A stretch of DNA of 64,000 nucleotides from Candidatus Omnitrophota bacterium (GTDB lineage: Bacteria; Omnitrophota; Gorgyraeia; Zapsychrales; Zapsychraceae). The DNA lies in assembly GCA_028280285.1 (NCBI GenBank), contig JANQMA010000012.1, forward strand, positions 24,817 through 88,816, written 5' to 3'. The notes under the pieces are model-generated. The model saw only the letters and a list, made by a program, of their open reading frames with translations. It did no database searches and was not told the origin of the DNA. A program made the position numbers and the translations under genes. How positions within the stretch are numbered: position 1 is the first letter of the stretch; each line of letters opens with the position of its first letter. Of the stretch, positions 50,502-64,000 are shown piece by piece.

Positions 50502-51197
50502 ATGACAGATAAAATTCTCATCATAATCCCCGCTTATAACGAAGAAGAAAGTATTGCGGGTATTATCAAGGAAGTCTTGGCGCTTAATTTGTCTGTTTCT
50601 GTTTTAGTTATTGATGATGGTTCAACAGATAATACAACATCGGTTGCCAAAGATTTGGGAGTTGACGTTATATCGCTTCCGATTAATCTAGGTATTGGTG
50701 GTGCAGTCCAAACAGGATACAAGTTTGCCCAAAAAAATGGTTTTGATATTGCTGTGCAAGTAGATGGGGATGGGCAGCATGATGTGACTTATTTAAATGC
50801 ATTGCTTGAGCCTATTATTAAGGAAGAAGCGGATATGGCCATCGGTAGCCGGTTTATTCCGCCTTATTTAGGTTATCAATCTTCTTTTATTAGAAGAATT
50901 GGTATTAATTTTTTTGCTTATCTGATTAGTTTTTTAACGGAATATAAGGTCACAGATCCAACATCGGGGTTTAGGGCGGTGAATAAAACATTAATTGATG
51001 TATTTGCGGACTATTATCCGGCGGATTATCCCGAACCAGAGGCCATTGTTGTTGCCGGGCGTGTTAAAAGTCGTATTCAAGAAGTTCCTGTTGAAATGCG
51101 TGCACGAAAAACAGGAAACAGTTCTATCCGTTATTTAAAAACATTGTATTATATGATAAAAGTAACATTTGCGATTGTTATGGAGAAATTCAAATAA
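50502..51197 (+). CDS. Family 2 glycosyltransferase (DPM1/GtrB-like polyprenyl-phosphate glycosyltransferase)
   Basis: ILIIIPAYNEEESI...VLVIDDGSTDNT, DxD region (VQVDGDGQHD), 231 aa. Confidence 0.7.
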   Translation: MTDKILIIIPAYNEEESIAGIIKEVLALNLSVSVLVIDDGSTDNTTSVAKDLGVDVISLPINLGIGGAVQTGYKFAQKNGFDIAVQVDGDGQHDVTYLNALLEPIIKEEADMAIGSRFIPPYLGYQSSFIRRIGINFFAYLISFLTEYKVTDPTSGFRAVNKTLIDVFADYYPADYPEPEAIVVAGRVKSRIQEVPVEMRARKTGNSSIRYLKTLYYMIKVTFAIVMEKFK

Positions 51198-51589
51198 TGG
51201 GTATGGCCAATATTATTGCACTTTTAGTTTCTGTTTGTCTTCTTTTATTAATATTTGAATTGTTGCGTGAAGAACGTTTAACATTTAAATATGCCGTAGG
51301 ATGGATTATCCTTGTGGTGCTTGCTATCCTTGGAGCGCTATTTGATGAAAAACTGTTTGAACTGGCGCATTTTTTTGGTTTTGAACTAGCCAGCAACTTT
51401 GTTTTTTTTGCCGTGCTAGCTTTTTTTGTATTTTTAAGCCTGTTTATGACAATATTTTTATGCCAGCAGAATAAAAACAATGATATTATGATTCAAAAAA
51501 TTGGGATGCTTGAGCATGAGGTCAATCAATTAAAGAAAAAGAAAGATTTTCAAGCTAATGGTAAAGATAACAACACCGCAAGCGAATGA
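51197..51589 (+). CDS. DUF2304-type small membrane protein
   Basis: Three TM helices and the LLREERLTFKYAVGW motif. It follows a GT2 gene, which is typical for this family. Confidence 0.5.
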   Translation: MGMANIIALLVSVCLLLLIFELLREERLTFKYAVGWIILVVLAILGALFDEKLFELAHFFGFELASNFVFFAVLAFFVFLSLFMTIFLCQQNKNNDIMIQKIGMLEHEVNQLKKKKDFQANGKDNNTASE

Positions 51590-52220
51590 TTGGGACAATT
51601 ACTGGAGTCTTGATCAGACAAAACGTTTTACTAAGATAAGTTGGTCGAAAAGACGTATTATACATATATTAGACCAGTATTGTGTTAAGGATGGTTTTGC
51701 GCTGGATGCTGGTTGTGGTAGTGGATTTTTTTCTAAATATTTTTGTGATAAGAATATGCAAACAACTGCGCTGGACTATTCACAGGAAGCGCTTGATATT
51801 GCCTTAAAGATGACCAATAATCACGTCGAGACTTTTCAAACTGACTTAACTCAACCAGGCCTTGATAAAAAAGTCAGACACCATTTTGATATTATTTTTA
51901 CAGATGGTCTGTTTGAACATTTTTCTGATGAGCAGCAAGATGTGATTATGCAAAACTTTAAAAGCGTTTTAAAGGATAGTGGTTACATTATAACGTTTGT
52001 TCCTAATAAATGGTCGCCCTGGGAATTAATACGTCCATTTTTTATGCCAGGTATTGAAGAAGATCCTTTTATTATGTCGCGTTTAATTCATTTAAATCAA
52101 CGCAATGAATTAACAGTTGTTGAAAAAAATGGTATTAATACGCTTCCGTTTGCTTTATCGCCTGATAAGCTTTTCGGTTCTGCCTTTGGAATGCTTTTAT
52201 TTACTATTGCGAAAAAATGA
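51558..52220 (+). CDS. Class I SAM-dependent methyltransferase
   Basis: Motif I LDAGCGSGFFSKYF plus post-I and II regions. The start is uncertain, since it overlaps the previous ORF by 32 nt. Confidence 0.6.
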   Translation: MVKITTPQANDWDNYWSLDQTKRFTKISWSKRRIIHILDQYCVKDGFALDAGCGSGFFSKYFCDKNMQTTALDYSQEALDIALKMTNNHVETFQTDLTQPGLDKKVRHHFDIIFTDGLFEHFSDEQQDVIMQNFKSVLKDSGYIITFVPNKWSPWELIRPFFMPGIEEDPFIMSRLIHLNQRNELTVVEKNGINTLPFALSPDKLFGSAFGMLLFTIAKK

Positions 52221-53233
52221 TGAATCAATCTGTCAGTGTTGTTGTTCCTGCCTATAATTGTAGTCAAACAATAGCGGAAGTGATTAAAGCGTTACTTAAT
52301 CAAACCATTAAACCTCAACAAATCATCATTGTTGATGACGGTTCTTCCGACGATACAGCAAGTATTATTAAATCGTTTGATAAAATCACATATATTTATC
52401 AAGACAATGGTGGTCCGGCCACGGCGCGTAATAACGGTGCAAAACACGCCACAAGCGATTACATTTTTTTTACTGATTCCGATTGTGTTGCCCGTAAAGA
52501 TTGGTTAGAAAAGGCGATTATTCATTTTAACCGCGATGATATTGCTGTTGTTTGCGGCAGTTATGACATTGTTAATAGCGAAAGTATTCTTGCCCGTTGT
52601 ATCCACAAAGAAATTTTGTTTCGTCACAATACTTTGATGCCCGATTATCCAAAAGCTTTTGGTAGTTATAATTTTGGTATTCAAAAAGGAGTTTTTGATC
52701 AATTGGGTGGTTTCAATGAACAGTACCGGTTTGCCAGCGGTGAAGACAATGATTTAAGTTATAAAGTTTTAAAGGCCGGCTATAAAATCTATTTTGCTAA
52801 GGATAGTTTGGTTGCACACGTTCATACCCATGTTTTGGCTAAGTATCTGAAAGAACAATTTCGTCATGGGTTTTGGCGTGTCAAAATGTATTTAACGCAT
52901 CCAGAAATGATGCGTGGCGATGATTATACATTTTGGAAAGATATTGTTGAGGTCGGTTTGTGCGAATTGGTCCTTTTTCTGGGATTTCTAGTCATTTTTT
53001 TTCCTCATTTGGTTTTTTACTCTGCTTCAGGGTTGGTTCTATTGGTTTTACTAGAGTTATGGTTTGGGCTTAAAACCGCTGGAAATTACAAAGACGGCAT
53101 TTATTTCGCCTATGTGCTTTTTTTAAGGTCATTTGCACGGTTTTTTGGGTTTTTAACGGGGACAATATGTCTTTTCCCTGTGTTTTTTTTCGTTTTTGTC
53201 CGCAATCGGAATTTGAGCCGCAAGGCCTCCTAA
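52217..53233 (+). CDS. Family 2 glycosyltransferase with C-terminal transmembrane region
   Basis: VSVVVPAYNCSQTI...IIIVDDGSSDDT, DSD motif (FTDSDCV), and 3-4 C-terminal TM helices. Confidence 0.7.
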   Translation: MMNQSVSVVVPAYNCSQTIAEVIKALLNQTIKPQQIIIVDDGSSDDTASIIKSFDKITYIYQDNGGPATARNNGAKHATSDYIFFTDSDCVARKDWLEKAIIHFNRDDIAVVCGSYDIVNSESILARCIHKEILFRHNTLMPDYPKAFGSYNFGIQKGVFDQLGGFNEQYRFASGEDNDLSYKVLKAGYKIYFAKDSLVAHVHTHVLAKYLKEQFRHGFWRVKMYLTHPEMMRGDDYTFWKDIVEVGLCELVLFLGFLVIFFPHLVFYSASGLVLLVLLELWFGLKTAGNYKDGIYFAYVLFLRSFARFFGFLTGTICLFPVFFFVFVRNRNLSRKAS

Positions 53234-53590
53234 AATGCTTATCTTCCCTATTATTGTATTTAGATCAAAATAATGATGTTTTGCGGTGTCCAGTCTGATT
53301 ATTGTTAGTTTTTTGATGTATATCTCCTGAAAGTCCGTGTCACTTATTTTTTCATTTGAATATTTTTTAACAACTGTAATGGCGATATTTTGCGTTTGTT
53401 GCTAAAGACTGATTGTGCAGTATTTTACGCATTTGCTCATATGGAATGATAGTTTTTTACCAGAAATGAAGAAATTTTTATATTTATTCATTTTCTTTAT
53501 ATCCAAATAAAAAATTCCTCCTTGTTTCTCGACGGGTAAGGGGGGTGGCTCAGAAATGTGATTTCTGTGTGAAAATTTTTTATTTTTAGC

Positions 53591-53625
53591 TTGCACACTA
53601 TTTATTACTTTATAACATTATATAT
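53591..53625 (+). promoter_or_regulatory. Candidate sigma70-type promoter giving a leaderless or near-leaderless transcript for the secretin operon
   Basis: TTGCAC (53591-53596), a 16-nt spacer, TAACAT (53613-53618), then ATG at 53626 with no SD. This is pattern match only. Confidence 0.3.
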
Positions 53626-54300
53626 ATGGCCGATAAAGAAAGCGCACAAGATAAGCTAGCTAAGATGATACAGGCATCTGCCAAAAGTGCGGATGCACCT
53701 GCAGATGATCCCGCGGCGGCATTAGCAGCTGCAACAGGAGCCCAACCTGTTGGAGCGGGAGCAAAATCAAAAAAGGGCGCCAAAAAGAATCCTGCTGAGC
53801 TTATTAAACTATTGAACGTCGTTTTGATTGTGGCTGTTGTGGGCTGTTTGGGGCTTTTATTTAATCAGTTTGCGGTAGGCAATAGCTTGATCAATTCAAG
53901 CAGCGAATTTGGGGCGGACATCACGGTTAAAAAAGGACTACGTCCTAATTTAGCCCTACCAACGGTTCAGAGACTTTCGTACTATCTTGCCGATATTAAT
54001 AGCAGAAATATTTTTCAGCCGTTTCAAAGAGAGGTTGAAGAAACGGTGACAAAGGTTTCCGATACAACGCGGGCAGTCGCCCGTAAAACACGCGATTTTC
54101 GTCTTGTTGGGGTGGCTTGGTTTGACTCGGTTGATTCCGCCTCAGCAATGATTGAAGATACAAATAAAAAAGTCACTTATTTTCTTCGCAGAGGCGAAAA
54201 AATAGGGGATGTTTCTGTAAAAACCATTTATGCCGACGGTGTAGAGCTAGGCTATCAAAATGAGGAGATAATAATACAATATGACAAATCTCAACTATAA
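53626..54300 (+). CDS. Membrane-anchored protein, possible secretin-associated PilP/GspC-like component
   Basis: An Ala/Pro/Lys-rich low-complexity N-terminus, one TM helix (LLNVVLIVAVVGCLGLLF) and a periplasmic beta-rich domain. It overlaps the secretin gene start by 20 nt. The functional assignment rests on context only. Confidence 0.3.
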   Translation: MADKESAQDKLAKMIQASAKSADAPADDPAAALAAATGAQPVGAGAKSKKGAKKNPAELIKLLNVVLIVAVVGCLGLLFNQFAVGNSLINSSSEFGADITVKKGLRPNLALPTVQRLSYYLADINSRNIFQPFQREVEETVTKVSDTTRAVARKTRDFRLVGVAWFDSVDSASAMIEDTNKKVTYFLRRGEKIGDVSVKTIYADGVELGYQNEEIIIQYDKSQL

Positions 54301-55864
54301 AATCAAAATGGTTGTTGCAATGGTTGTGTTTTTTGGTTTTGCAACGGCACTCTTGGCGCCTACAGTGTCGCAGGCCAGATCGCCTAAACCCATTGTGATA
54401 AAAAGTATGAACGAAGCAATCTCCCGGCGTATGCAAAGAGAGATCACATTGGATGTTCGCGATATGAATATCGTTGATGTTATCAAATTTCTTGCGCTGA
54501 AAGGAGATTTCAACGTTGTTATCAGTCCAACCGTAGAAGGCCGTGTAACGGTTCTTTTGAATAATGTCAGCATTGAAGATGCGATGGATATTGTCATTAT
54601 TTCTAACCGTTTGGCGTATAAGGTTGAGAATAATATTGTCCAGGTTTTTACAGATGCTGAGTATGAAGCCATTTACGGCAAACGGTTCTCTGATAAAACT
54701 CAGGTGCATATTGTGCGTTTACAATATTCCAAACCAAGCTATGTGTTAGCGGCGCTCGACAATATCAAAAGTAATGTCGGTAAAATCATTATTGACGAGG
54801 ATACGGGTTCTGTTGTGATGATTGATACGGCCGAAGCCATTGGGTTAATGAAAAATGCCCTTAAAGAGATTGAAAGGCCCTTGGAAACAATTACCTATAC
54901 GCTGCAGTATGCCGAAGCCGATATTGTTGCAGAGAAGCTGCGTGCACGGATTGATGCCAAAGCGGTTGGGTCTATCACGCCGGATGAGCGAAGTAATAGT
55001 TTAATTGTGCGTGCTTATCCTGAACGGACAAAAGAGGTGCTTGATATCATTAAAAAGCTTGATACCGAGACTAAAGAAGTCATGGTTGATGCGCGTATTC
55101 TGCAAATTGTTCTTAAGCCGGAATATGATGTTGGTGTTGACTGGGAAGTTGATTTTGATGGTTCTGATAATGCGTTGCGTTTTAGTAATCTCTATTTGGA
55201 TACAGCGAATATATCAAGTACGGATAACCTTGCGTCTACTTTTGGATCGATTGCTGTCGGGGATATCAGCGCAGATGACTTTACAGTCAAAATTCGTTCC
55301 CTTGAGCAAGTCAGTGATACGAAAATTTTATCTAATCCTAAAATTCTTGTAACCAATAATGAAGAAGCTAAAATTCATATTGGCGACACAGTTCCTTATA
55401 TTATCTCGACGACATCAGGGACGGGGGATAATGCGATTACCAGTGAAGATGTGCGTTTTGTCGATGTGGGACTTAAGCTTAATGTCACCCCTAAAATAAA
55501 CGATGAGGGCATGGTGACTATGCGTCTACGACCGGAAATTTCGACAGTTGTTGCTCAAATTACTTCTGAAGGCGGCGGAATTCCGCAGGTTAACAAAACT
55601 GAAGTTGAAACAACTGTTATGGTGCAGGACGGCAATACAATTATCATGGGTGGCCTTAAAAAAGATGATAAGGTGCATGTGAAAAAAGGTTTTCCTGTCC
55701 TCATGGATTTGCCGTGGTTTGGCCCGGTTTTTGGCCGCACAGATGATGAAATCACAGAAACAGAAATCGTTATCTTTATCACACCAACGGTTGTATCAGG
55801 TTATGATACATACGTTGATTATGAAGGAGATATAAAACCGTTTAAAGAGTATAGCATTAAATAA
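54281..55864 (+). CDS. Secretin (type II secretion / type IV pilus GspD/PilQ family)
   Basis: Signal peptide, N-terminal secretin_N-type domains, and the conserved C-terminal secretin domain (GGIPQVNKTEVETTVMVQDGNTIIMGGL...VPVLMDLPWFGPVFGRTDDEITETEIVIFITP). Confidence 0.8.
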   Translation: MTNLNYKIKMVVAMVVFFGFATALLAPTVSQARSPKPIVIKSMNEAISRRMQREITLDVRDMNIVDVIKFLALKGDFNVVISPTVEGRVTVLLNNVSIEDAMDIVIISNRLAYKVENNIVQVFTDAEYEAIYGKRFSDKTQVHIVRLQYSKPSYVLAALDNIKSNVGKIIIDEDTGSVVMIDTAEAIGLMKNALKEIERPLETITYTLQYAEADIVAEKLRARIDAKAVGSITPDERSNSLIVRAYPERTKEVLDIIKKLDTETKEVMVDARILQIVLKPEYDVGVDWEVDFDGSDNALRFSNLYLDTANISSTDNLASTFGSIAVGDISADDFTVKIRSLEQVSDTKILSNPKILVTNNEEAKIHIGDTVPYIISTTSGTGDNAITSEDVRFVDVGLKLNVTPKINDEGMVTMRLRPEISTVVAQITSEGGGIPQVNKTEVETTVMVQDGNTIIMGGLKKDDKVHVKKGFPVLMDLPWFGPVFGRTDDEITETEIVIFITPTVVSGYDTYVDYEGDIKPFKEYSIK

Positions 55865-55889
55865 AACCCAAACCCACAAGAGGTGACCT

Positions 55890-56375
55890 ATGAAATATCT
55901 ATCAGTCAAGCTGACAGCTGTTTTGGCTGTTCTGACGTTTTTGGCCTTTTTTACCGTCGATGTATTTGCCACTCCGGAATCGGTACGTAAGGAGACGCAA
56001 ACATTAAATATTCTAACGCGTATTGATGCCTTTGCTGAAACGGATCCTGTGCTGCGTAGTGATGCGGCCAAGGCGCATTATAACATGGGCAATATTTATT
56101 ATCGCAAAGGGGAATATGAAATTGCGGCCCGTGAGTACTATCAAGCATCAACTTTAATGCCAGATGATCCTGATGTGCACTATAATTTGGCATTTGTGAG
56201 CTCTCAGCACCTATTTGACTATAGAACGGCACTCAAGCATTACAAAATGTACTTATATCTCAAGCCTGGCGCGCGCGATGCCAAGTTTGTTAAAAGAAAG
56301 ATCAATGAAGCGGAGCTTTACATAAGATCTTTGGTTGATTCACCATTGGAAAAATCGATAGAGCGCAGCAGATAA
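55890..56375 (+). CDS. TPR-repeat protein (PilF/PilW-like secretin partner), secreted
   Basis: Signal peptide plus 3 TPR units (AHYNMGNIYYRKGEYEIAAREYYQASTLMPDDPDVHYNLAFV). It lies immediately downstream of the secretin. Confidence 0.5.
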   Translation: MKYLSVKLTAVLAVLTFLAFFTVDVFATPESVRKETQTLNILTRIDAFAETDPVLRSDAAKAHYNMGNIYYRKGEYEIAAREYYQASTLMPDDPDVHYNLAFVSSQHLFDYRTALKHYKMYLYLKPGARDAKFVKRKINEAELYIRSLVDSPLEKSIERSR

Positions 56376-56470
56376 AGCATATTGCTCTCAACAAAAAAAG
56401 TTACAAAAATTTGATCGGTTGGCGTAACTACTTGCTGCAAAATTACTTTTGAAAAAAAACGATTTTTATC

Positions 56471-56499
56471 TTGTAGACGAATTGTGCGATGCATATAAT
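56471..56499 (+). promoter_or_regulatory. Near-consensus sigma70 promoter upstream of the first FGE-domain gene
   Basis: TTGTAG (56471-56476), a 17-nt spacer, TATAAT (56494-56499), about 50 nt upstream of ATG 56552. Confidence 0.45.
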
Positions 56500-56551
56500 A
56501 TCTATAATTAGATATTAGATAATTTCAATCTATATTATTATTTCTTATACT

Positions 56552-58138
56552 ATGAATATAAATAAAAGGTTTGTTCTTTTACTAATTATCCTCGTCGAGA
56601 TATTTATTCTTACCGTTTCTAATGTTCACGCCAATAACTTATTCTTATCAAATGTCAGCCTAGAATCAAGAGATCCAGCCAGTGATACCGTGGTTGTTGA
56701 GTTTGATTTATCCTGGAATAACGCATGGTATACAAAAATTAATCATGATGCTGTGTGGCTTACTTTTCGTTTAGACAATGGGGCAAGTCCAACCGATAAA
56801 CGTCTTTGTGCAATTACATTCAGTGGTGTTAATCCTGTTGGTTCATCGACCGGTACAAATACAGCGATCGAAGTGTATGTGCCCAATGATAAGCTTGGGG
56901 TCTTTGTCCGTTTGGCAGACTTTGGTAGCGAAGCACAGGTCAGTTCTCAAAATCTTCAAGTCACAGTTGATTATGCCAGCTGCGGTTTTACCGAAAACGA
57001 TCAAGTTGAAGCAACGGTTTTTGGTCTAGAAATGGTTTTTGTGCCACAAGGGGCCTTTTATGCGGGTGATTTTGACACAAGTGCTGCAGCCTTTAACCAA
57101 GGATCATCGGATACGGATGCTTGGTATATTTCCAACAGCGCAGCTATCAGCGTGGCCAACCCTTCATCCAACGGGTATCGTTATGTATCTAATAACAACA
57201 CGAACGAGGCGGCAACCGGCGCTTCATTTACCATCGATTCGGATTTTCCGAACGGCTACGATGCTTTTTATGCCATGAAGTACGAGATCACAGAAGGACA
57301 ATGGGTTGAGTTTGTTAATTCACTACCGACGGATGCTGCCAGATCAAACCGTGATTTGACCAACGGCAGCCATAAAAATTCGGATGCGGTTAAATCACGC
57401 AATACAGTCAGCTGTTCTGGAACACCCACAGTTTGTTCAACTTCTCGTCCTTACCGGGCAGCGACATATTTAACCTGGATGGATTTACTAGCATTTTTGG
57501 ATTGGGCGGCCTTAAGGCCAATGACGGAACTTGAATTTGAAAAAATGGCACGTGGTGCCGTTTTACCTGTTGCTGGTGAATTTGCCTGGGGTACGACGGA
57601 TATTACAGCTGCTGCGGCGATCAGTGTCGGCGATGAAGATGGCACCGAGACAATCACAACGGCCAGCGCCAATGCCAATTACAATAACACTGTTTTTACC
57701 GGAGGTGATGCGGACAACGGCGGCGAGCATACACAGGGAGCGCTTCGTTCCGGGATCTTTGCCGGTTCTGTGTCGAACAAAGTATCTGCCGGAGCAAGCT
57801 ATTACGGTGTTATGGAGCTTTCGGGTAATGTGATTGAACGTGCGGTGACCGTTGGCAATGCGAGTGGAAGAAGTTTTACAGGAACACACGGTGACGGTGT
57901 TTTAACGACAACATCATCGTTTGAAGGCAATGCCACCAATTCTGATTGGCCCGGCATTGATGCCACACCGGCCAATGGAGTGACCGGTGCTGATGGTTCC
58001 GGTTTTAGAGGCGGGGCTTTTAGTGAGGTATCAAGCAATCGACTAAGGGTTTCCGATCGCTATGATGCGGCAAATGCTTCGACAGTTGCGTTTAACGATG
58101 CAGGCGGCCGAGGCGTACGCACTTATGACGGAAACTAA
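56552..58138 (+). CDS. Secreted FGE (formylglycine-generating enzyme/SUMF1)-domain protein with a novel N-terminal domain, paralog 1
   Basis: Signal peptide and an ~150-aa N-terminal beta-rich domain. The FGE-domain hallmarks are LEMVFVPQGAFYAGD, RPYRAATYLTWMDLLAFLDWAALRPMTELEFEKMARG and GFRGGAF. The C-terminal Cys pair of catalytic FGEs is not evident. Confidence 0.55.
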   Translation: MNINKRFVLLLIILVEIFILTVSNVHANNLFLSNVSLESRDPASDTVVVEFDLSWNNAWYTKINHDAVWLTFRLDNGASPTDKRLCAITFSGVNPVGSSTGTNTAIEVYVPNDKLGVFVRLADFGSEAQVSSQNLQVTVDYASCGFTENDQVEATVFGLEMVFVPQGAFYAGDFDTSAAAFNQGSSDTDAWYISNSAAISVANPSSNGYRYVSNNNTNEAATGASFTIDSDFPNGYDAFYAMKYEITEGQWVEFVNSLPTDAARSNRDLTNGSHKNSDAVKSRNTVSCSGTPTVCSTSRPYRAATYLTWMDLLAFLDWAALRPMTELEFEKMARGAVLPVAGEFAWGTTDITAAAAISVGDEDGTETITTASANANYNNTVFTGGDADNGGEHTQGALRSGIFAGSVSNKVSAGASYYGVMELSGNVIERAVTVGNASGRSFTGTHGDGVLTTTSSFEGNATNSDWPGIDATPANGVTGADGSGFRGGAFSEVSSNRLRVSDRYDAANASTVAFNDAGGRGVRTYDGN

Positions 58139-58157
58139 TACAAAACAGTTGGGGGAG

Positions 58158-59813
58158 ATGAAAAAAGAATATAACATGCCAAGCAGGTCTCTTTTTATTT
58201 TAACAGCAGTGGTAGCGCTTTCCTTCTTTACTGCGCAATCTGTTTTTGCCAATAATCTTTCTATCGAAAGTTTTTCTGTTTATTCGACGAGCGAAGCAGC
58301 CAACACGATTACCTATGCGGCTGATATAACATGGGAAAACAGCTGGCGGACGACAACGAATTATGATGCTGTTTGGGTTTTCCTTAAATATTCAACCGAT
58401 GCAGGCATGACATGGAATCACGCCAGTATGGCCAATAATGGGGTGAATCCAAATGGATTCAGTGCGCCTACCGGGTTTGAGATTGTTGTTCCGGATGACG
58501 AAAAAGGATTCTTTTTACAGAGAACGGATTTAAGTTCGGGTAATGTTTCTGCCGAGGATGTAAAGTTTATTTGGGATTACGGGCAAGATGGATTGACAGA
58601 TGATCAAGCCATGGCAGCTAATACGATCAATAAAGTTTTTGGAATCGAAATGGTTTATATCCCTGAGGGACCTTTTTATGCCGGTGATGATAACAGCTCG
58701 TCGGAATACCGATTTAAACAAGGCTCCTCTGATAATGACCCTTGGTATATTCAGAGTGAAAATGCGATTACTACGACGAACTCTACCGCCGATGGGTTCT
58801 ATTATCAAAGTTCTTCCGCCTCTTCGGAAAGTGCCAGCGGGGCGGTATTTATTATTCAAACTTCTTTTCCAAAAGGCTACAACGACCATTATCAAATGAA
58901 GTATGAGTTGACCGAAGGGCAGTGGGTTGACTTTTTTAACACACTCTCGAATGCGCAAAAAACGAATAGAGATATTACAGCGTCGACGAATGGCGGTAAA
59001 AATTCAGATAGTGTCGTGACACGCAATACCATTGCCTGGGATTCATCCAGTCCGGCATCCGATGCCACAACCGACCGCGCTGATCGTCCGGTGACCTATG
59101 TGTCCTGGCCGGATGTGTTAGCGTACGCGGATTGGGCCGCCTTAAGACCGATTACCGAACTTGAGTATGAGAAAGCTGCACGTGGAATCGATATTACTCC
59201 TCTATCCGATGAACTCGCTTGGAGCAAGACAACATATAATCAAGCCGAAGCCAGTGAGATATTTCCTGATGCCGATGAAGACGGCGAAGAGCAAATTTTT
59301 GACGGAGCTGCCAATTTAAATCGTAATTCCCTTGGTTGGTCGTCCGGTGATGGACGCGCAGGCGGTAGTGCGGCCGGTCAGGCAGGTCCTTTACGTGCAG
59401 GTATTTTTGCAGAAAGTTCAACTAACCGCACGACGAGCGGATCAGGATATTATGGATCAAAAGAATTGTCCGGTAATTTATCTGAGATGGTGGTTACAGT
59501 CGGTAACGCGTCGGGACGTGGTTTTCTCGGAACACATGGAGACGGCAGCCTCTCGACCATCAGCAGTTATGAAGGTAATGCAACAAATTCTGATTGGCCG
59601 GGGATTAATGCCACAGATAGTGCACGTGGTGTGACAGGCACATCAGGTTCTGGATATCGTGGAGGAAATTTTAATTCGTCGAATGTCAGACATTTTCAAG
59701 TTTCAAACCGAACAAACGCAGCCAAAGACGCAGACGGAGCCAGCTATAGTCAGCGTTATGATGCTTCATTTGGTATGTTTGGTTCAGGCCGTTTAGGAAG
59801 GACGGCCCCGTAG
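58158..59813 (+). CDS. Secreted FGE-domain protein, paralog 2
   Basis: Same architecture (IEMVYIPEGPFYAGD; RPVTYVSWPDVLAYADWAALRPITELEYEKAARG; GYRGGNF). The mature protein is essentially Cys-free. The start is ATG 58158 or 58176. Confidence 0.55.
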   Translation: MKKEYNMPSRSLFILTAVVALSFFTAQSVFANNLSIESFSVYSTSEAANTITYAADITWENSWRTTTNYDAVWVFLKYSTDAGMTWNHASMANNGVNPNGFSAPTGFEIVVPDDEKGFFLQRTDLSSGNVSAEDVKFIWDYGQDGLTDDQAMAANTINKVFGIEMVYIPEGPFYAGDDNSSSEYRFKQGSSDNDPWYIQSENAITTTNSTADGFYYQSSSASSESASGAVFIIQTSFPKGYNDHYQMKYELTEGQWVDFFNTLSNAQKTNRDITASTNGGKNSDSVVTRNTIAWDSSSPASDATTDRADRPVTYVSWPDVLAYADWAALRPITELEYEKAARGIDITPLSDELAWSKTTYNQAEASEIFPDADEDGEEQIFDGAANLNRNSLGWSSGDGRAGGSAAGQAGPLRAGIFAESSTNRTTSGSGYYGSKELSGNLSEMVVTVGNASGRGFLGTHGDGSLSTISSYEGNATNSDWPGINATDSARGVTGTSGSGYRGGNFNSSNVRHFQVSNRTNAAKDADGASYSQRYDASFGMFGSGRLGRTAP

Positions 59814-59834
59814 TTTTGCTTTAAGTAATCCTAC

Positions 59835-62800
59835 ATGAGCAACCATAGAACAAAAGAAAATTTATTTCACGCGTGTTTGACGTGGTTTGTGATATTTACA
59901 TTCCTGCTCGCGCAAACGCCTTCGACTGTCTATGCACAGTTTACAGGAGGTAGTTTCGGCGGGGATGGCACGTCATCCCTCGGTGAAGGTATATATAAAG
60001 GTGGATCCGAAGAAGGCTCTTCAAGTAGTTCAACGTCAAGCACCGCTTCATTAGCTCATGGTGAGGCGACGCAACTTGTATTCACACAAAGTCCTTCCAC
60101 AAGCAAACACTTGCACAAATTCGAACGCCAACCGATCATAGAAGTTCGAGATGCAAATGGTAATGTGATTACAACAGATAATACTACTGCCGTTTCTTTG
60201 GATCTATTTAATAACCCTGGTGCCGCCAAACTTGGCGGCACCACGACGGTGACAGTATCCTCCGGGGTTGCTGTTTTCACCGATCTTTCCGTTAATAATC
60301 CTGCCGAAATGTACACGCTGATCGCATCCGCACCAGGACTGACATCCGCGTTTTCAGATCCGTTTGATATTTTAACCGGTACAGGTCCACGGGCCATGGC
60401 ACTCTGGGATGAAACAGGGGGCGGCGGCTTCACTATTTATGTATGGTTAGAGTCAGACAATGACCGTGAAGAATTATCTGATAATGGAGGTAGTCCTGAC
60501 GACGCAGCGACCATTACGATCCTTGATGCGCAAGGCAACACGGAGTTGTCACCAGCTTTAACACTTGATACCACCAATGATTGGTTTAAATCAGCGGACC
60601 GTGTTTGGACGTTGACCGAAGCGGATGAAAAAGATGATTACTTTGCCAAGGTTCAAATTACACAAGATCCGGGCGGAGCTAATACAACCACCGATGCTAT
60701 CGTTCCTCTTGAAGTCATCAAACCGATTTTAGCGGAAATAGCCGATGTTAATTGGGATCTGCTTGCCGCTATTAAAGCCAAGACCGATACAATTAATTGG
60801 GATGATATTACAGAAATTAAGGCCAAAACCGATACGATTAATTGGGATGATATTAGTGTCTTGAGAACAGATGTAACAACAATTAAAGGTTATCTTGATG
60901 ATGTGAATTGGTCTGATGTCGAGAGGATGAGCGAAGCCGGTATTAATTGGGAAAATATTATGGTCATGACCAGTTTTGAAATTAACTGGACTGATATTGA
61001 CCGATTAAGTAAGGAAGGTGTGAATTGGACGGAAATAGCTGATTTGGCTGCGCGCGATATTAATTGGGATGACATTGAAGTTTTCAGTCAGGCGGGGGTT
61101 AATTGGGACGATTTAGTTGCCTTGAGTGAAGCGGGGGTTAATTGGGATGATCTTGCTGTCATGACGGCACAAGGAGTGAATTGGGCAGATATTAAAGTGC
61201 TGCATGATAAAGGAATGAACTGGGATGCCCTTGTTTTTCTAGGTACGGCCGATGTGAATTGGGATGATATTTCAGCGATGAGTAATGCCGGCGTTATTTG
61301 GAGTGAATATATCAATTGGTCTGACCTTGCTGTCTTATCTAATGCCGGTGTTAACTGGGATGATCTTGATGAGATGAGTGACGCCGGTATCAATTGGGAT
61401 GATTTAACCGTGATGAGTGAAGCGGGGGTTAATTGGGATGATTTACAGGAGTTATCAACGGCAGGTATTAATTGGTCTGACCTGACGGTAATGACTGAAG
61501 CCGGCATTAATTGGGCCGATATTGAAGTTTTATCGACGCAAGGTGTTAACTGGACGGATATTGGTGTTATGACAGCCCAAGGTATTAATTGGGCCGATAT
61601 TGATGTGCTTTCAAAAGCGGGTGTTAATTGGTCAGGCATTCAAGACTTAAGTACCGCCGGAGTGAATTGGGATGGGATTCAACATTTAAGTGTATCTAGT
61701 ATTAACTGGGATGATATTGAACAGTTAAGTAAAAAAGGTGTCAACTGGGATGACTTACAACAAATGACCACCGCCGGTGTTAACTGGAATGACATTGAAC
61801 AGTTGAGTACGACAGGTATCAATTGGGATGGCATCCAGCATTTAAGCACCTCAGGTGTTAACTGGTCAGATATTGGTGTTATGACAAAGGCCGGGGTGAA
61901 TTGGGCTGATATTGATGTATTGAGTAGGACGGGAGTGAACTGGAATGATATTCAGGTTATGACGGTCGCGGGCATAAACTGGGATGATATCGGACAAATG
62001 ACAACAGCGGGTGTTAACTGGGATGATATTGAGCAATTAAGTAAGACGGGTGTGAACTGGGATGACTTACAACAAATGACCACCGCCGGTGTGAACTGGG
62101 ATGATATTGAACAGTTAAGTAAGGCCGGTGTGAACTGGGATGATATCCAAGTCATGTCGACAACAGGAGTCAATTGGAGCGGCATTCAGCACCTCAGTGT
62201 TTCCGGTGTTAACTGGTCGGATATCGGGGTCATGTCGGAGGCTGGTGTCAACTGGGATGGCATCCAGCATTTAAGTGTGTCTGGTGTGAATTGGTCAGAT
62301 ATCGGGGCGATGACAACAGCCGGCGTCAATTGGGATGACATTGAACAGTTAACAAAAAAAGGTGTGAACTGGGATGATATTCAGGTTATGACGGTCGCGG
62401 GCATAAACTGGGATGATATTGGACAAATGACAATCGCTGGTGTGAACTGGGATGATATTGAACAGTTGAGTAAAAAAGGTGTCAACTGGGATGGGATTCA
62501 AGATTTAAGTACTGCCGGCGTGAACTGGGATGACTTACAACAAATGACCACCGCCGGTGTGAACTGGACCGATATTGAAGTTTTATCAAAGACGGGTGTT
62601 AACTGGGATGATCTGCAAGTGATGACGGTCGCCGGCGTTAACTGGTCGGATATCGGGGTTATGTCAAAAGCCGGTGTTAACTGGGATGGCATCCAGCATT
62701 TAAGTACATCCGGTGTTAATTGGGATGATTTACAAGCGTTATCCACCGCCGGTGTGAACTGGGATGATATTGAACAGTTGAGTAAAAAAGGTGTCAACTG

Positions 62801-64000
62801 GGATGACTTACAACAAATGACCACCGCCGGTGTGAATTGGGATGATATCGGTGCTCTGACGACAGCTGGTGTAAACTGGGATGATATTAAGGCATTAAGT
62901 GAGACGGGTGTGAATTGGGATGACTTACAACAAATGACAACAGCGGGTGTGAATTGGTCGGATATCGGCGTCTTATCAACGACCGGTGTGAACTGGGATG
63001 ATATTAAGGTATTAAGTGAAACAGGCGTCAACTGGGATGGCATTCAGCACCTCAGTGTTTCCGGTGTCAACTGGTCGGATATCGGGGTGATGTCAACGGC
63101 CGGTGTTAACTGGAATGATTTACAACAAATGACCACCGCCGGTGTGAATTGGGATGATATCAAGGTATTAAGTGAAAACGGTGTTAATTGGGATGGTTTA
63201 CAAGACCTTAGTACCTCGGGTGTGAATTGGGCGGATCTTGGTGTAATTTCAGCAACGGGAGTGAATTGGGATGATATTAAGGTATTAAGTGAAACAGGTG
63301 TCAACTGGAATGGTATTCAACACCTCAGTGTTTCCGGCGTTAACTGGTCGGATGTCGGAGTGATGTCGACGGCCGGAGTGAACTGGGATGATATTGAACA
63401 GTTGAGTAAGACAGGCATTAACTGGGATGATATTGAACAGTTAAGTAAGACAGGCATTAACTGGGATGATCTGCAAGCTATGACAACAGCCGGTGTGAAC
63501 TGGGATGATATTGAGCAGTTAAGTAAGGCCGGTGTGAACTGGGATGATATTGAGCAATTAAGTAAGACGGGTGTGAACTGGGATGACTTACAACAAATGA
63601 CCACCGCCGGTGTGAATTGGTCGGATATTGGGGTGATGTCGGTGGCCGGTGTGAACTGGGATGATATTAAGGTCATGAGTGAAGGCGGAGTGAATTGGAG
63701 CGGCATTCAGCACCTCAGTGTTTCCGGTGTTAACTGGTCGGATATCGGGGTGATGTCGACGGCCGGAGTGAATTGGGATGATATTGAACAGTTAAGTAAA
63801 ACAGGTATTAACTGGGATGATATTGAACAATTAAGTAAGACGGGTATTAATTGGGATGATTTTCAGGTGATGACCACCGCTGGAGTGAATTGGACGGATA
63901 TTGGCGTCTTATCAAAAGCTGGTGTTAACTGGACAGATATTCAAGTCTTGTCGGAGGCAGGCGTTAACTGGTCGGATATTGATGTGATGTCAAAAGCCGG
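59835..64000 (+). CDS. Giant secreted tandem-repeat protein (>1388 aa, 3' end beyond the window): signal peptide, Ser/Gly-rich linker, Ig-like domain, then >80 copies of a 13-aa GVNW[DS]DIxxLS unit
   Basis: The frame is open from ATG 59835 to the window end. It is absent from the ORF track because no stop falls inside the window. The signal peptide is MSNHRTKENLFHACLTWFVIFTFLLAQTPSTVYAQ. The repeat consensus is x-x-G-V-N-W-[DS]-[DG]-I-x-x-[LM]-[ST]. Confidence 0.75.
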   Translation, partial: MSNHRTKENLFHACLTWFVIFTFLLAQTPSTVYAQFTGGSFGGDGTSSLGEGIYKGGSEEGSSSSSTSSTASLAHGEATQLVFTQSPSTSKHLHKFERQPIIEVRDANGNVITTDNTTAVSLDLFNNPGAAKLGGTTTVTVSSGVAVFTDLSVNNPAEMYTLIASAPGLTSAFSDPFDILTGTGPRAMALWDETGGGGFTIYVWLESDNDREELSDNGGSPDDAATITILDAQGNTELSPALTLDTTNDWFKSADRVWTLTEADEKDDYFAKVQITQDPGGANTTTDAIVPLEVIKPILAEIADVNWDLLAAIKAKTDTINWDDITEIKAKTDTINWDDISVLRTDVTTIKGYLDDVNWSDVERMSEAGINWENIMVMTSFEINWTDIDRLSKEGVNWTEIADLAARDINWDDIEVFSQAGVNWDDLVALSEAGVNWDDLAVMTAQGVNWADIKVLHDKGMNWDALVFLGTADVNWDDISAMSNAGVIWSEYINWSDLAVLSNAGVNWDDLDEMSDAGINWDDLTVMSEAGVNWDDLQELSTAGINWSDLTVMTEAGINWADIEVLSTQGVNWTDIGVMTAQGINWADIDVLSKAGVNWSGIQDLSTAGVNWDGIQHLSVSSINWDDIEQLSKKGVNWDDLQQMTTAGVNWNDIEQLSTTGINWDGIQHLSTSGVNWSDIGVMTKAGVNWADIDVLSRTGVNWNDIQVMTVAGINWDDIGQMTTAGVNWDDIEQLSKTGVNWDDLQQMTTAGVNWDDIEQLSKAGVNWDDIQVMSTTGVNWSGIQHLSVSGVNWSDIGVMSEAGVNWDGIQHLSVSGVNWSDIGAMTTAGVNWDDIEQLTKKGVNWDDIQVMTVAGINWDDIGQMTIAGVNWDDIEQLSKKGVNWDGIQDLSTAGVNWDDLQQMTTAGVNWTDIEVLSKTGVNWDDLQVMTVAGVNWSDIGVMSKAGVNWDGIQHLSTSGVNWDDLQALSTAGVNWDDIEQLSKKGVNWDDLQQMTTAGVNWDDIGALTTAGVNWDDIKALSETGVNWDDLQQMTTAGVNWSDIGVLSTTGVNWDDIKVLSETGVNWDGIQHLSVSGVNWSDIGVMSTAGVNWNDLQQMTTAGVNWDDIKVLSENGVNWDGLQDLSTSGVNWADLGVISATGVNWDDIKVLSETGVNWNGIQHLSVSGVNWSDVGVMSTAGVNWDDIEQLSKTGINWDDIEQLSKTGINWDDLQAMTTAGVNWDDIEQLSKAGVNWDDIEQLSKTGVNWDDLQQMTTAGVNWSDIGVMSVAGVNWDDIKVMSEGGVNWSGIQHLSVSGVNWSDIGVMSTAGVNWDDIEQLSKTGINWDDIEQLSKTGINWDDFQVMTTAGVNWTDIGVLSKAGVNWTDIQVLSEAGVNWSDIDVMSKA
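60740..64000 (+). repeat. Coding tandem repeat array with 39-nt period (about 83 units in the window)
   Basis: The GGTGTGAACTGGGATGATATTGAACAGTTAAGTAAG-type unit repeats head-to-tail. Higher-order 78/117-nt blocks recur almost identically. Confidence 0.85.

What the first reader, a model, noticed from the sequence alone, without database searches (positions are those of the whole stretch)
53626..64000. Candidate surface-apparatus locus: PilP-like anchor, secretin, TPR partner, two FGE-fold proteins and a giant repeat fibre
The gene order (membrane-anchored periplasmic protein overlapping a secretin, a TPR partner, two non-catalytic-looking FGE-fold secreted proteins, then a giant secreted repeat protein) loosely parallels systems in which FGE-like lipoproteins and a secretin-class channel handle a huge repetitive adhesin (for example the GldJ/GldK and SprB logic). 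No pilin, ATPase or T9SS core genes are visible in the window, so this could be an uncharacterised adhesion or secretion module.
Basis: inference. Interest (0 to 1): 0.6.

Follow-up and report, generated by a model that had tools for sequence, protein, structure and literature searches.

The report
Secretion channel genes beside repeat fibre
In an uncultivated ultra-small bacterium (phylum Omnitrophota), the outer-membrane channel genes of a type II secretion-like machine sit directly upstream of two enzyme-like but probably non-enzymatic proteins and a very long repeat protein, an arrangement kept across the phylum that may build a tether for attaching to other cells.

Summary
In detail: six tightly packed + strand genes encode a membrane-anchored GspC/PilP-like protein, a secretin, a small TPR protein, two paralogous FGE-fold proteins lacking the catalytic cysteines, and a signal-peptide protein with at least 82 units of a 13-residue repeat that runs off the window.

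The window is from Omnitrophota. About 30 loci across the phylum keep this order, including divergent ones whose upstream flanks differ. The secretin is not an orphan. In relatives, the repeat protein is followed by a 435-aa unknown, an F-type ATPase gene set and a GspE-F-G-J-K-PilMN-PilO operon that has no secretin or GspC of its own. The finding is therefore most likely the outer-membrane half of a split type II secretion-like system, with a candidate cargo embedded in it.

The FGE-fold proteins belong to a cross-phylum family. In Bacteroidota and their relatives its genes are followed by genes for type IX secretion cargo. This suggests a periplasmic partner of the neighbouring exported protein, not a GldJ/GldK homologue.

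Published Omnitrophota work describes the ATPase/pilus co-location but not this secretin-FGE-fibre module in the papers I could search. Export of the fibre through the secretin is inferred, not shown.

The parts
53234..53625 (.). AT-rich intergenic region upstream of the cluster. Most relatives carry an about 296-aa AAA_22 (ExeA/MshM-class) ATPase gene at this position; it is absent here.
   Evidence: Sequence read. The AAA_22 gene occupies this slot in L001-L007 and others, and is absent in L008, L011, L013, L015, L017 and L086. The promoter-like sites found are no more numerous than in shuffled sequence.
53626..54300 (+). Bitopic inner-membrane protein (224 aa) with a conserved C-terminal beta-rich domain. 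It is the GspC/PilP-class connector to the secretin.
   Evidence: Weak T2SSC and GspC_delta hits, both below their cut-offs. One hydrophobic segment at residues 55-86. The C-terminal block is conserved in 11 orthologues. The gene always sits immediately upstream of the secretin. A profile search found no solved-structure match.
54281..55864 (+). Secretin (527 aa) of the GspD/PilQ class: signal peptide, weak STN/N0 match, two Secretin_N domains and a C-terminal secretin domain.
   Evidence: PF00263 E 1.1e-46; Secretin_N E 2.6e-21. GspD model 241.6 bits against a cut-off of 351; PilQ model 238.7 against 284. The best solved relative is the T2SS GspD 5wln, E 9e-39.
55890..56375 (+). Small TPR protein (161 aa) with an N-terminal hydrophobic leader and no lipobox. 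Candidate secretin accessory.
   Evidence: TPR_11 E 1.2e-13. Weak similarity to PilW, Tgl and GltE TPR lipoproteins, all far below their cut-offs. It follows the secretin in nearly all relatives; L022 shows no TPR match there and in L064 an FGE gene intervenes.
56552..58138 (+). FGE-fold protein A (528 aa): signal peptide, mature N-terminus NNLFLSNVSL, N-terminal beta-sandwich (about residues 30-163) and a C-terminal FGE-sulfatase-like domain without the catalytic cysteines.
   Evidence: PF03781 32.1 bits against a cut-off of 23.3. 2839 homologues, with the top 120 at 56-64% identity, all from Omnitrophota where a name is given. Cys occurs only at positions 86, 144, 288 and 295. In the AlphaFold model only the N-terminal sandwich is confident. 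Only the core FGE motif matches solved FGEs, E 1e-5.
58176..59813 (+). FGE-fold protein B (545 aa from this ATG; the longest ORF starts at 58062). It is a paralogue of A, contains no cysteine, and ends in GRLGRTAP.
   Evidence: PF03781 49.5 bits. 45% identical to A. Zero Cys. A-type then B-type order is kept in close relatives, and the copy number ranges over 1, 2 and 4 across the phylum.
59835..64000 (+). 5' part (1388 codons, open at the window end) of the repeat-fibre gene. Domains: signal peptide (aa 1-34), low-complexity linker, Ig-like domain (aa 78-180; 60066-60374), second beta-sandwich (aa 185-295; 60387-60719), then 13-residue repeats G-[VI]-N-W-[DS]-D-[IL]-x-x-[LM]-[ST]-x-x from about 60744 onward.
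   Evidence: Translation. Repeat statistics. Tandem DNA repeats with a 39-nt base period and higher-order periods at 63-91% match. AlphaFold model: two beta domains at pLDDT 75-90, and each repeat as a 9-residue helix plus 4-residue loop at pLDDT about 50. The Ig-like domains match adhesion molecules and S-layer domains. Orthologues range from 868 aa to 6919 aa.

Best explanation
The region is the outer-membrane half of a split type II secretion-like (type IV filament) system of Omnitrophota, with a candidate cargo module embedded in it.

**Channel genes.** The bitopic GspC/PilP-class protein links the inner-membrane platform to the GspD/PilQ-class secretin. The TPR protein, and in most relatives an ExeA/MshM-class AAA_22 ATPase, probably assist secretin assembly. 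This role is assigned by analogy and was not tested.

**Inner-membrane half.** In relatives it comprises GspE with a c-di-GMP-type MshEN domain, GspF, GspG, minor pseudopilins, GspK, a PilM-PilN fusion and PilO. It lies downstream of the repeat gene, after a 435-aa unknown protein and an F-type ATPase gene set. It encodes no secretin or GspC of its own.

**Candidate cargo.** Between the two halves sit one to four FGE-fold genes and the fibre gene.
- The fibre protein is exported to the periplasm by Sec.
- It has no membrane anchor.
- It carries two Ig-like domains, tens to about 500 helix-loop repeats of 13 residues, and a helical C-terminal domain of about 200 residues.

**Proposed mechanism (inferred).**
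- The cysteine-less FGE-fold proteins act in the periplasm as binding, escort or docking partners of the fibre.
- The fibre is then passed through the secretin and displayed as a long adhesive tether for contact with host or prey cells.

**Shown:** gene content, domain assignments, loss of the FGE catalytic residues, conserved linkage, and the absence of a secretin from the downstream operon.

**Inferred:** that the window's own contig continues in the same way, that the fibre leaves the cell through this secretin, and what the FGE-fold proteins do.
For: 1.
2. The order [AAA_22]-HR protein-secretin-TPR-FGE(1-4)-fibre appears in about 30 Omnitrophota loci. Divergent loci keep it although they lack the window's upstream genes; in L024 the flank is an AMP-binding enzyme and a hydrolase.
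3. One genome, L086 (GCA_016201795.1), shows the whole block on one strand. Its fibre is short (868 aa): HR-secretin-TPR-FGE-FGE-fibre-435aa-ATPase genes-GspE-GspF-GspG.
4. Eleven metagenome loci show the fibre C-terminus, then the 435-aa gene, the ATPase genes and GspE-GspF. None of 80 loci centred on GspE has a secretin, GspC-like or FGE homologue in the sequence held, which is at most 10 kb on each side.
5. The downstream operon in L107 contains T2SSG, T2SSJ (weak), T2SSK, PilM+PilN and PilO. Its GspG scores 146.5 bits against the equivalog cut-off of 88.85.
6. The fibre has a signal peptide. The complete short orthologues P0145 and P0148 have no further hydrophobic segment and no Pfam export domain.
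7. Across phyla, the FGE family is followed by a gene for an exported protein. A T9SS C-terminal sorting domain is found directly downstream in 20 of 25 loci from Bacteroidota and relatives. One Bdellovibrionota locus has a fusion to DUF285 surface repeats.
8. The FGE-fold proteins lack the catalytic cysteines.
9. A non-catalytic FGE fold serving as a periplasmic docking hub has a precedent in PorK, GldK and GldJ (PMC12421860).
Against: - No experiment or expression data are available.
- The conserved block also contains an F-type ATPase gene set. In close relatives it is preceded by the same housekeeping genes (LplA, S41 peptidase, glycosyltransferases). Omnitrophota gene order is thus conservative in general, and adjacency alone is weak evidence of function.
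- L019 has FGE-FGE-fibre directly after a Suf operon, with no secretin in 8.4 kb upstream.
- Homologues of the FGE family outside Omnitrophota never have a secretin next to them.
- Type II systems normally export compact folded proteins. Passage of a 1,000-7,000-residue fibre has no precedent that I know of.
- Seymour et al. classify the downstream genes as a type-4a pilus, not a T2SS.
- The secretin, GspE and GspF all score below the GspD/E/F and PilQ/B/C equivalog cut-offs.
- The window ends inside the fibre gene, so the downstream half is not seen for this genome.
- The structure models of the FGE domain and of the repeats have low confidence.
Confidence: 0.45

Rival explanations
1. These are two unrelated modules kept side by side by conservative gene order. 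The secretin, connector and TPR protein serve the type-4a pilus or T2SS for pilus extrusion or other cargo. The FGE-fold proteins and the fibre form an independent envelope or surface module that does not use this secretin.
For: - An F-type ATPase gene set lies inside the same conserved block, and housekeeping genes are syntenic upstream in close relatives.
- L019 has FGE-FGE-fibre without a nearby secretin.
- The FGE family is widespread without secretins in other phyla.
- Five Omnitrophota FGE paralogue loci (L026, L027, L029, L032, L038) have no secretin.
Against: - The cluster stays intact in divergent Omnitrophota that lack the window's upstream genes (L018, L022, L024, L028, L035, L040).
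- Intergenic gaps are 21-176 nt with no convincing terminator.
- The complete fibre orthologues show no other export signal.
Confidence: 0.3
2. The FGE-fold proteins are enzymes that modify the fibre in the periplasm before export, for example by oxidising or otherwise modifying a residue of the invariant N-W-(D/S)-D motif. They would use chemistry other than the copper/cysteine mechanism of FGE.
For: - The FGE-sulfatase fold supports several chemistries (FGE, EgtB, SenA). FGE-B has weak EgtB/SenA matches in one short stretch.
- Many residues are invariant across 36 homologues, including acidic and aromatic positions.
- The gene is paired with a neighbouring exported protein across phyla.
- N and W are invariant in all 77 regular repeat units.
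Against: - There are no catalytic cysteines.
- The EgtB-type iron ligands lie in a DinB domain (my own knowledge), and no such domain was detected.
- Neighbouring proteins in other phyla do not carry the NW repeat, so no common substrate motif is evident.
- The paralogue copy number varies from 1 to 4.
Confidence: 0.15
3. The super-locus encodes a surface-motility or grappling machine. The FGE-fold proteins form a periplasmic ring or track as PorK/GldK/GldJ do. The giant fibre is the moving adhesin or 'leg'. The adjacent F1-like ATPase supplies force, as proposed for Mycoplasma mobile gliding.
For: - Seymour et al. report that a non-respiratory type-2/3 F-type ATPase is co-located with pilus genes in every Omnitrophota class, and they compare it with the Mycoplasma gliding motor.
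- The ATPase genes lie between the fibre gene and gspE. I found no a-subunit gene there.
- The alpha and beta subunits match the MMOB1660/1670 gliding models at 396 and 412 bits, below their cut-offs.
- PorK, GldK and GldJ use a non-catalytic FGE fold as a structural hub.
Against: - The alpha and beta subunits pass the ordinary atpA and atpD equivalog cut-offs, so they may be the cell's normal ATP synthase.
- The FGE-fold proteins are not lipoproteins and match no GldJ/GldK model.
- I know of no mechanism coupling a cytoplasmic F1 ATPase to a secreted, anchorless fibre in a cell with two membranes.
- The idea rests on gene adjacency only.
Confidence: 0.1

Closest known systems
Type II secretion system (GspC-GspD outer-membrane assembly with a GspE/F/G/J/K platform) that has a substrate gene encoded inside or beside the gsp cluster, as with Klebsiella pulA or E. 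coli sslE (from my own knowledge)
   Same: - A secretin preceded by a bitopic connector protein.
- In relatives: GspE, GspF, a GspG that passes its equivalog cut-off, a T2SSK-domain protein, and a Sec-dependent candidate cargo encoded within the cluster.
   Different: - The cluster is split by the cargo genes and an ATPase operon.
- PilM-PilN and PilO replace GspL and GspM.
- The connector lacks a PDZ domain.
- The secretin, GspE and GspF fall below their equivalog cut-offs.
- The presumed cargo is a 0.9-7 thousand-residue repeat fibre and not a compact enzyme.
- FGE-fold accessory genes are unknown in type II systems.
Omnitrophota 'symbiotic F-type ATPase / type-4a pilus' loci (Seymour et al. 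2023, PMC10066038)
   Same: In relatives, F-type ATPase genes lie immediately upstream of GspE/PilB, PilC, pilin and PilMNO genes, within 10 kb. This is the architecture that paper reports in every class of the phylum.
   Different: - That paper's main text does not contain the words secretin or sulfatase.
- The fibre gene, the 435-aa gene and the secretin module upstream of the ATPase are not described there.
- I did not test whether the ATPase here belongs to their 'symbiotic' clade.
T9SS PorK/GldK/GldJ (non-catalytic FGE-fold lipoproteins) with the SprB giant adhesin
   Same: - Exported FGE-fold proteins that lack the two catalytic cysteines.
- They are encoded next to a secretion apparatus and a very large repeat surface protein.
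- Homologues in Bacteroidota and relatives sit next to T9SS cargo genes.
   Different: - No lipobox.
- No match to GldJ/GldK/PorK models.
- A distinct N-terminal beta-sandwich and a conserved mature N-terminus NN[IL]x[VI]SN.
- The channel is a secretin and not SprA/Sov.
- No PorL/M/N genes were seen.
MSHA-type pilus cluster (MshL secretin, MshM AAA_22 ATPase, MshN TPR protein, MshE with MshEN domain)
   Same: An AAA_22 ATPase, a small upstream protein, a secretin and a TPR protein occur together, plus an assembly ATPase with an MshEN domain in relatives. The MSHA gene content is from my own knowledge.
   Different: - The MshL model scores 174.5 against a cut-off of 250.
- The major filament subunit is GspG-type.
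- The AAA_22 gene is absent from the window.
- The gene order differs.
- FGE and fibre genes are inserted.
T2SS-like locus upstream of Omnitrophota giant genes over 30,000 aa (West-Roberts et al. 2023, bioRxiv 10.1101/2023.11.21.568195)
   Same: Same phylum, and the same theme of secretion genes next to very large surface proteins thought to mediate prey contact.
   Different: - That locus has more than 10 subunits, including gspD/E/F, rcpC and a Rotamase_2 isomerase, and precedes multi-domain transmembrane giants.
- Here there is no rcpC or isomerase. The fibre is anchorless and built of one 13-residue repeat. The FGE-fold genes are not mentioned in that preprint.

Membership tests
Secretin superfamily | C-terminal secretin domain (PF00263) with N-terminal Secretin_N ring domains | tested here: met
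   PF00263 159 bits against 27.5. Secretin_N 76.1 bits against 28.2, two stretches.
T2SS secretin GspD (TIGR02517 equivalog) | Score at or above the curated cut-off of 351.35 | tested here: not met
   241.6 bits. The best solved relative is nevertheless a T2SS GspD, 5wln, E 9e-39.
Type IV pilus secretin PilQ (TIGR02515) | Score at or above the curated cut-off of 284.35 | tested here: not met
   238.7 bits. No AMIN domain was reported by Pfam.
Type II secretion system (whole system) | GspD plus GspE, GspF and the major pseudopilin GspG in one system | tested here: inconclusive
   The window holds only the secretin and the connector. In relatives GspG passes its equivalog cut-off (146.5 against 88.85). 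GspE (558.7 against 630) and GspF (318 against 424) are best hits but fall below their cut-offs. The window ends before this region.
GspC | Bitopic protein with the T2SSC homology region (PF11356 at or above 27 bits) | tested here: inconclusive
   20.4 bits, E 4.7e-4. NF041515 24 bits against 150. The topology fits. No PDZ domain. A profile search found no solved-structure match.
   No PilP family appeared at E <= 0.01 in Pfam or NCBIfam. The protein has an internal transmembrane segment and no lipobox.
Formylglycine-generating enzyme (catalytic FGE/SUMF1) | FGE-sulfatase fold | tested here: met
   PF03781 32.1 and 49.5 bits against 23.3. The core motif aligns to solved FGEs at E 1e-5.
Formylglycine-generating enzyme (catalytic FGE/SUMF1) | Two active-site cysteines near the C-terminus | tested here: not met
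   FGE-B has no cysteine. FGE-A has Cys only at 86, 144, 288 and 295, none after the RGG motif. The position of the catalytic pair is from my own knowledge of FGE and from PMC12421860.
GldJ/GldK/PorK (T9SS FGE-fold lipoproteins) | Outer-membrane lipoprotein (lipobox Cys) matching GldJ/GldK/PorK family models, in a T9SS context | tested here: not met
   Signal-peptidase-I type leaders ending in A|NN with no Cys, both in the window and in homologues from other phyla. No such NCBIfam hit at E <= 0.01. No T9SS genes appear in the window.
MSHA pilus secretin MshL (TIGR02519) | Score at or above 250.2 | tested here: not met
   174.5 bits.
Omnitrophota 'symbiotic' F-type ATPase/T4aP locus (Seymour 2023) | Type IV filament genes within 10 kb of an F-type ATPase gene set of the type-2/3 clade | tested here: inconclusive
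   Co-location is met in relatives. Clade membership of the ATPase was not tested: the alpha and beta subunits pass the ordinary atpA/atpD cut-offs and also match the Mycoplasma gliding models below their cut-offs. This cannot be seen in the window.
T1SS-exported RTX-type giant adhesins | RTX nonapeptide repeats, a C-terminal T1SS signal and adjacent ABC/MFP/TolC genes | tested here: not met
   No such Pfam domains occur in the window part. The complete orthologue P0145 has none on record. No T1SS genes appear in the flanks.

The most novel reading that the evidence does not exclude
The secretin module, the FGE-fold pair, the length-variable helical fibre, the 435-aa protein, the F1-like ATPase and the GspE-PilO operon together form one host-attachment or surface-motility organelle of ultra-small Omnitrophota.

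In this reading the FGE-fold proteins build a periplasmic ring or track, as PorK/GldK/GldJ do. A fibre of up to about 500 repeats is threaded through the secretin. The F1-like ATPase or the pseudopilus piston extends or pulls the fibre. This would be a new kind of grappling machine combining parts known from T2SS, T9SS and Mycoplasma gliding.
Probability: 0.1. Interest if true: 0.85.

Novelty: new variant of a known kind. Interest (0 to 1): 0.55.

Why it matters
Omnitrophota are abundant, uncultivated, ultra-small bacteria thought to live attached to, or preying on, larger cells. How they hold on to those cells is unknown.

This locus offers a concrete, phylum-wide candidate.
- It is a secretin-based export apparatus with an embedded fibre gene whose length varies from about 0.9 to 7 thousand residues between genomes. 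If each 13-residue helix-loop unit adds roughly 1 nm (a rough inference from helical-repeat proteins in general), the longest versions would exceed the cell's own diameter.
- It identifies a widespread, unnamed family of non-catalytic FGE-fold periplasmic proteins. Their genes are followed by genes for exported surface proteins whichever secretion system the phylum uses. This points to a general, unstudied step in surface-protein biogenesis.

Both ideas can be tested in the Velamenicoccus archaeovorus enrichment culture and in cultivable Bacteroidota such as Kordia or Winogradskyella.

Tried and rejected
- **Exact-sequence look-ups** of the window's FGE-A, and of its 100%-identical database entry, found no contig. 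The source contig beyond the window could not be read.
- **AlphaFold of FGE-A** with 36 homologues gave mean pLDDT 52. Only the N-terminal sandwich was usable, and Foldseek against the PDB gave nothing below E 0.001. No structural comparison with PorK/GldK was therefore possible.
- **An in-register alignment of repeat segments** (A3) was slid out of register by MAFFT and was not used.
- **A profile of the connector protein** found no solved structure.
- **Protein searches with the fibre N-terminus and repeats** returned only fragments under 1000 aa.
- **The representative-library search** was dominated by the common Ig-like domain (9571 hits) and said little about the repeat.
- **The promoter/terminator scan** found no more sites than in shuffled sequence.
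- **Pfam hits of the repeat region** to Lysostaphin_N (103 bits, itself a 13-residue tandem repeat by my own knowledge), Ntox33, VD10_N, TniQ, and to the NCBIfam DotG/IcmE and Dmc1 models. I judged these to be periodicity or composition artefacts and not homology.
- **The AAA_22 ORF at 37192-38010 (-)** is only 34% identical to the AAA_22 gene that occupies the slot in relatives. I did not take it as a relocated orthologue.
- **Membership in GldJ/GldK, PilP, MshL and catalytic FGE** was rejected (see the membership tests).

Full report
**1. What is in the window**

Between 53626 and 64000 the + strand carries six closely spaced ORFs.

- **53626-54300.** This 224-aa protein has one hydrophobic segment at residues 55-86. 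It gives a weak, sub-threshold match to the type II secretion protein GspC: PF11356 at 20.4 bits against a cut-off of 27, and NF041515 at E 2.7e-5. No PilP model matched.
- **54281-55864.** This gene overlaps the previous one by 20 nt and encodes a clear secretin. PF00263 scores 159 bits and there are two Secretin_N domains. It scores almost equally against the GspD and PilQ models and below both cut-offs, 241.6/351 and 238.7/284. Its best solved relative is the T2SS secretin 5wln.
- **55890-56375.** This is a 161-aa TPR protein with a hydrophobic leader and no cysteine.
- **56552-58138 and 58176-59813.** These are paralogues, 45% identical. Each has a signal peptide, an N-terminal beta-sandwich and an FGE-sulfatase domain above Pfam's cut-off.
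- **59835 onward.** A signal-peptide protein runs 1388 codons to the window end without a stop.

Genes from 43875 to 53233 encode glycine-cleavage proteins, a lipoate ligase, an S41 peptidase, glycosyltransferases and a methyltransferase.

**2. The repeat protein**

The repeat unit is 13 residues: G-[VI]-N-W-[DS]-D-[IL]-x-x-[LM]-[ST]-x-x. N and W are invariant in all 77 regular units, and there are 82 units in the window. At the DNA level the base period is 39 nt, with higher-order periods of 78 to 429 nt at only 63-91% match. The array is therefore old and conserved at the protein level, not a recent expansion.

An AlphaFold model of residues 1-620, built with 18 orthologous fragments, gives three regions:
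- an Ig-like domain at residues 78-180, pLDDT about 90;
- a second beta-sandwich at residues 185-295;
- for each repeat, a 9-residue helix and a 4-residue loop, at low confidence (pLDDT about 50).

The two beta domains match Ig-type adhesion and S-layer domains. The Ig-like domain is very common in large proteins: 9571 library hits were dominated by it.

Two complete short orthologues, P0145 (868 aa) and P0148 (900 aa), add a conserved helical C-terminal region of about 200 residues ending in VVxAWxE. They have no hydrophobic segment other than the signal peptide and no Pfam export domain. Called lengths in other genomes are at least 1080, 3479 (cut by the contig end), 4867 and 6919 residues. 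Pfam hits of the repeats to Lysostaphin_N and others are, in my judgement, periodicity artefacts.

**3. The FGE-fold proteins**

FGE-B has no cysteine. FGE-A has four, all before residue 296. The two catalytic cysteines of FGE, which follow the RGG motif near the C-terminus, are therefore absent. The position of that pair comes from my own knowledge and from PMC12421860. Only the central motif aligns to solved FGEs.

NCBIfam returned no GldJ, GldK or PorK hit. The leaders end in A|NN with no lipobox. The AlphaFold model of the FGE domain was too poor to compare folds.

**4. Origin and synteny**

FGE-A has 2839 database homologues. The top 120 are 56-64% identical, and where a source names them they come from Omnitrophota.

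Neighbourhoods of four homologues all show AAA_22 ATPase - small protein - secretin - TPR - FGE - FGE - giant ORF. A scan of one genome per species with an FGE alignment returned 80 loci. I mapped the window's proteins on them by tblastn.

- About 25 Omnitrophota loci keep the order.
- FGE copy number is one in L017, L028, L030 and L040, two in most loci, and four in L035.
- The AAA_22 gene is present in most loci but absent in the window, L008, L011, L013, L015, L017 and L086.
- The divergent loci L018, L022, L024, L028, L035 and L040 lack the window's upstream housekeeping genes. In L024 the flank is an AMP-binding enzyme and a hydrolase. They still keep the cluster.
- L019 is an exception: a Suf operon is followed directly by FGE-FGE-fibre, with no secretin.

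**5. What lies beyond the fibre gene**

In L086 the fibre is short, so the downstream genes are visible. They are a 435-aa signal-peptide protein with no family match, seven F-type ATPase genes, then an assembly ATPase with MshEN and T2SSE domains, a T2SSF protein and a T2SSG pseudopilin, all on the same strand.

A metagenome scan with that ATPase gave 80 loci.
- Eleven show the fibre C-terminus, the 435-aa gene, the ATPase genes, GspE and GspF in this order.
- None of the 80 has a secretin, GspC-like or FGE homologue in the sequence held, at most 10 kb either side of GspE.
- In L107 the genes after GspF are a Peptidase_MA_2 protein, GspG, a T2SSJ-like pseudopilin, a T2SSK protein, a PilM-PilN fusion, a PilO-like protein and a TPR protein.
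- That GspG passes its equivalog cut-off, 146.5 against 88.85.

The inner-membrane and pseudopilus half of a type II-like system therefore lacks its outer-membrane half. The only candidate for that half is the module in the finding.

In more distant Omnitrophota, the domain of the 435-aa protein forms the C-terminal end of a large Ig-repeat protein upstream of the ATPase genes. This ties it to the large surface protein.

**6. Literature**

- Seymour et al. [quoted passage not shown] Their text does not contain the words secretin or sulfatase.
- West-Roberts et al. 2023 describe a different locus of more than 10 genes with gspD/E/F, rcpC and a rotamase, upstream of giants over 30,000 aa. They do not mention FGE.
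- A 2026 preprint repeats that observation, and the terms FGE, formylglycine and sulfatase do not occur in it.

In the papers I could search, the secretin-FGE-fibre module is not described. I did not test whether the ATPase here belongs to the 'symbiotic' clade. Its alpha and beta subunits pass the ordinary atpA and atpD cut-offs and also match the Mycoplasma gliding models below their cut-offs. I found no a-subunit gene in the set.

**7. The FGE family outside Omnitrophota**

Full-length homologues at 35-40% identity share the mature N-terminus NN[IL]x[VI]SN and the C-terminal RTAP. They occur in Bacteroidota, Ignavibacteriota, Cloacimonadota, Kiritimatiellia, Lentisphaerota, Verrucomicrobiota, Bdellovibrionota and others, and never next to a secretin.

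- In loci from Bacteroidota and relatives with at least 2.5 kb of downstream sequence, 20 of 25 have a gene with a T9SS C-terminal sorting domain directly downstream on the same strand. Pfam confirmed six of these, and an HMM built from those six found the rest.
- One Bdellovibrionota protein fuses the FGE module to DUF285 surface repeats.
- In L072 the downstream cargo shares the fibre's Ig-like domain.

The family itself has no sorting domain, so it should remain in the periplasm. The cross-phylum rule is 'FGE-fold gene, then a gene for an exported surface protein'. This points to a periplasmic partner of the neighbour whichever outer-membrane translocon is used.

**8. Interpretation**

The best-supported reading has three parts.
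- The secretin, connector and TPR genes are the outer-membrane half of a split type II-like (type IV filament) system.
- The FGE-fold proteins are non-catalytic periplasmic partners of the fibre.
- The fibre is the system's embedded cargo, displayed as an adhesive tether.

The first part is well supported (my estimate is about 0.75). The second and third are inferences, which brings the whole statement to about 0.45.

The main rival is that conservative gene order keeps two unrelated modules together (0.3). L019, the ATPase genes inside the block, and the family's independence from secretins elsewhere all argue this way. An enzymatic role for the FGE-fold proteins (0.15) and a motility or grappling organelle involving the ATPase (0.1) are not excluded. 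These readings overlap, so the estimates are not meant to sum to one.

**9. Verdict**

The linkage is conserved, but the secretin belongs to a type II-like system whose remaining genes lie beyond the window. The GldJ/GldK comparison is an analogy, not membership. I rate this a new variant of a known kind, of moderate interest.

Noticed in passing
window 21-6569 (+): The window opens inside a very large ORF, with 2182 codons to its stop. It carries a histidine-kinase-type HATPase_c domain (E 1.3e-19) and little else recognisable. This resembles the C-terminal end of an 'Archaeovorin'-type Omnitrophota giant protein as described by West-Roberts et al. The contig therefore carries two unrelated very large genes.
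   Followed up: partly
window 37192-38010 (-), with neighbours 34810-36426, 36531-37103, 38153-39781 and 39747-40646: An AAA_22 ATPase lies here (best NCBIfam match the XrtA/PEP-CTERM-associated ATPase, 244.6 bits, below its cut-off). It is 34% identical to the AAA_22 gene that precedes the secretin module in relatives. It is surrounded by four ORFs of 190-542 aa with no Pfam match. Whether it substitutes for the missing gene at 53234-53625 is unknown.
   Followed up: partly
L086 13933-19336; L107 4578-9999; L100 and L087 likewise: The F-type ATPase gene set between the fibre gene and gspE has an unusual order: alpha, epsilon, a c-like 72-76 aa protein, a 75-aa protein, a b/delta fusion of 250 aa, gamma, beta. 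No a-subunit gene was detected. The alpha and beta subunits pass the ordinary atpA/atpD cut-offs but also match the Mycoplasma gliding-ATPase models MMOB1660/1670 at about 400 bits.
   Followed up: partly
L086 12610-13917; L107 3254-4558; L158 1-4857; L119 1-3950: A conserved protein of about 435 aa with a signal peptide and no family match always follows the fibre gene. In more distant Omnitrophota its domain forms the C-terminal end of a large protein with Kre9/KNH-like Ig repeats, just upstream of the ATPase genes. This gene fusion links it to the large surface protein.
   Followed up: partly
L034, L036, L037, L039, L041-L043, L045, L046, L052, L060, L061, L065, L066, L071, L072, L077, L078, L080, L082: In Bacteroidota, Ignavibacteriota and Cloacimonadota, the homologue of the window's FGE-fold proteins is followed on the same strand by a gene ending in a T9SS C-terminal sorting domain. 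This holds in 20 of 25 loci with enough downstream sequence. I found no description of this pairing in the one literature search aimed at it.
   Followed up: yes
L063 3737-8050: A Bdellovibrionota protein of 1437 aa fuses the same FGE-fold module to four DUF285 (BspA-like) surface-repeat units.
   Followed up: no
window 59787-59807 (+): A terminator-like hairpin (8 pairs, 5 of them G-C, followed by a T-rich tail) sits at the end of FGE-B, 28 nt before the fibre gene's start codon. It could attenuate read-through into the very long gene, but the scan as a whole found no more sites than in shuffled sequence.
   Followed up: no
window 19665-20135 and 21304-25860 (+): A PilZ-domain protein and two large TPR proteins (664 and 849 aa) lie in one + strand run about 13 kb downstream of the first giant ORF. 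West-Roberts et al. report pilZ genes immediately downstream of most Omnitrophota giant genes.
   Followed up: no
L020 7464-13155: In this 1.29-Mb contig the secretin and both FGE genes appear as several frame-shifted pieces. This could be decay of the module in that lineage, or assembly or sequencing errors. I did not distinguish between these.
   Followed up: no
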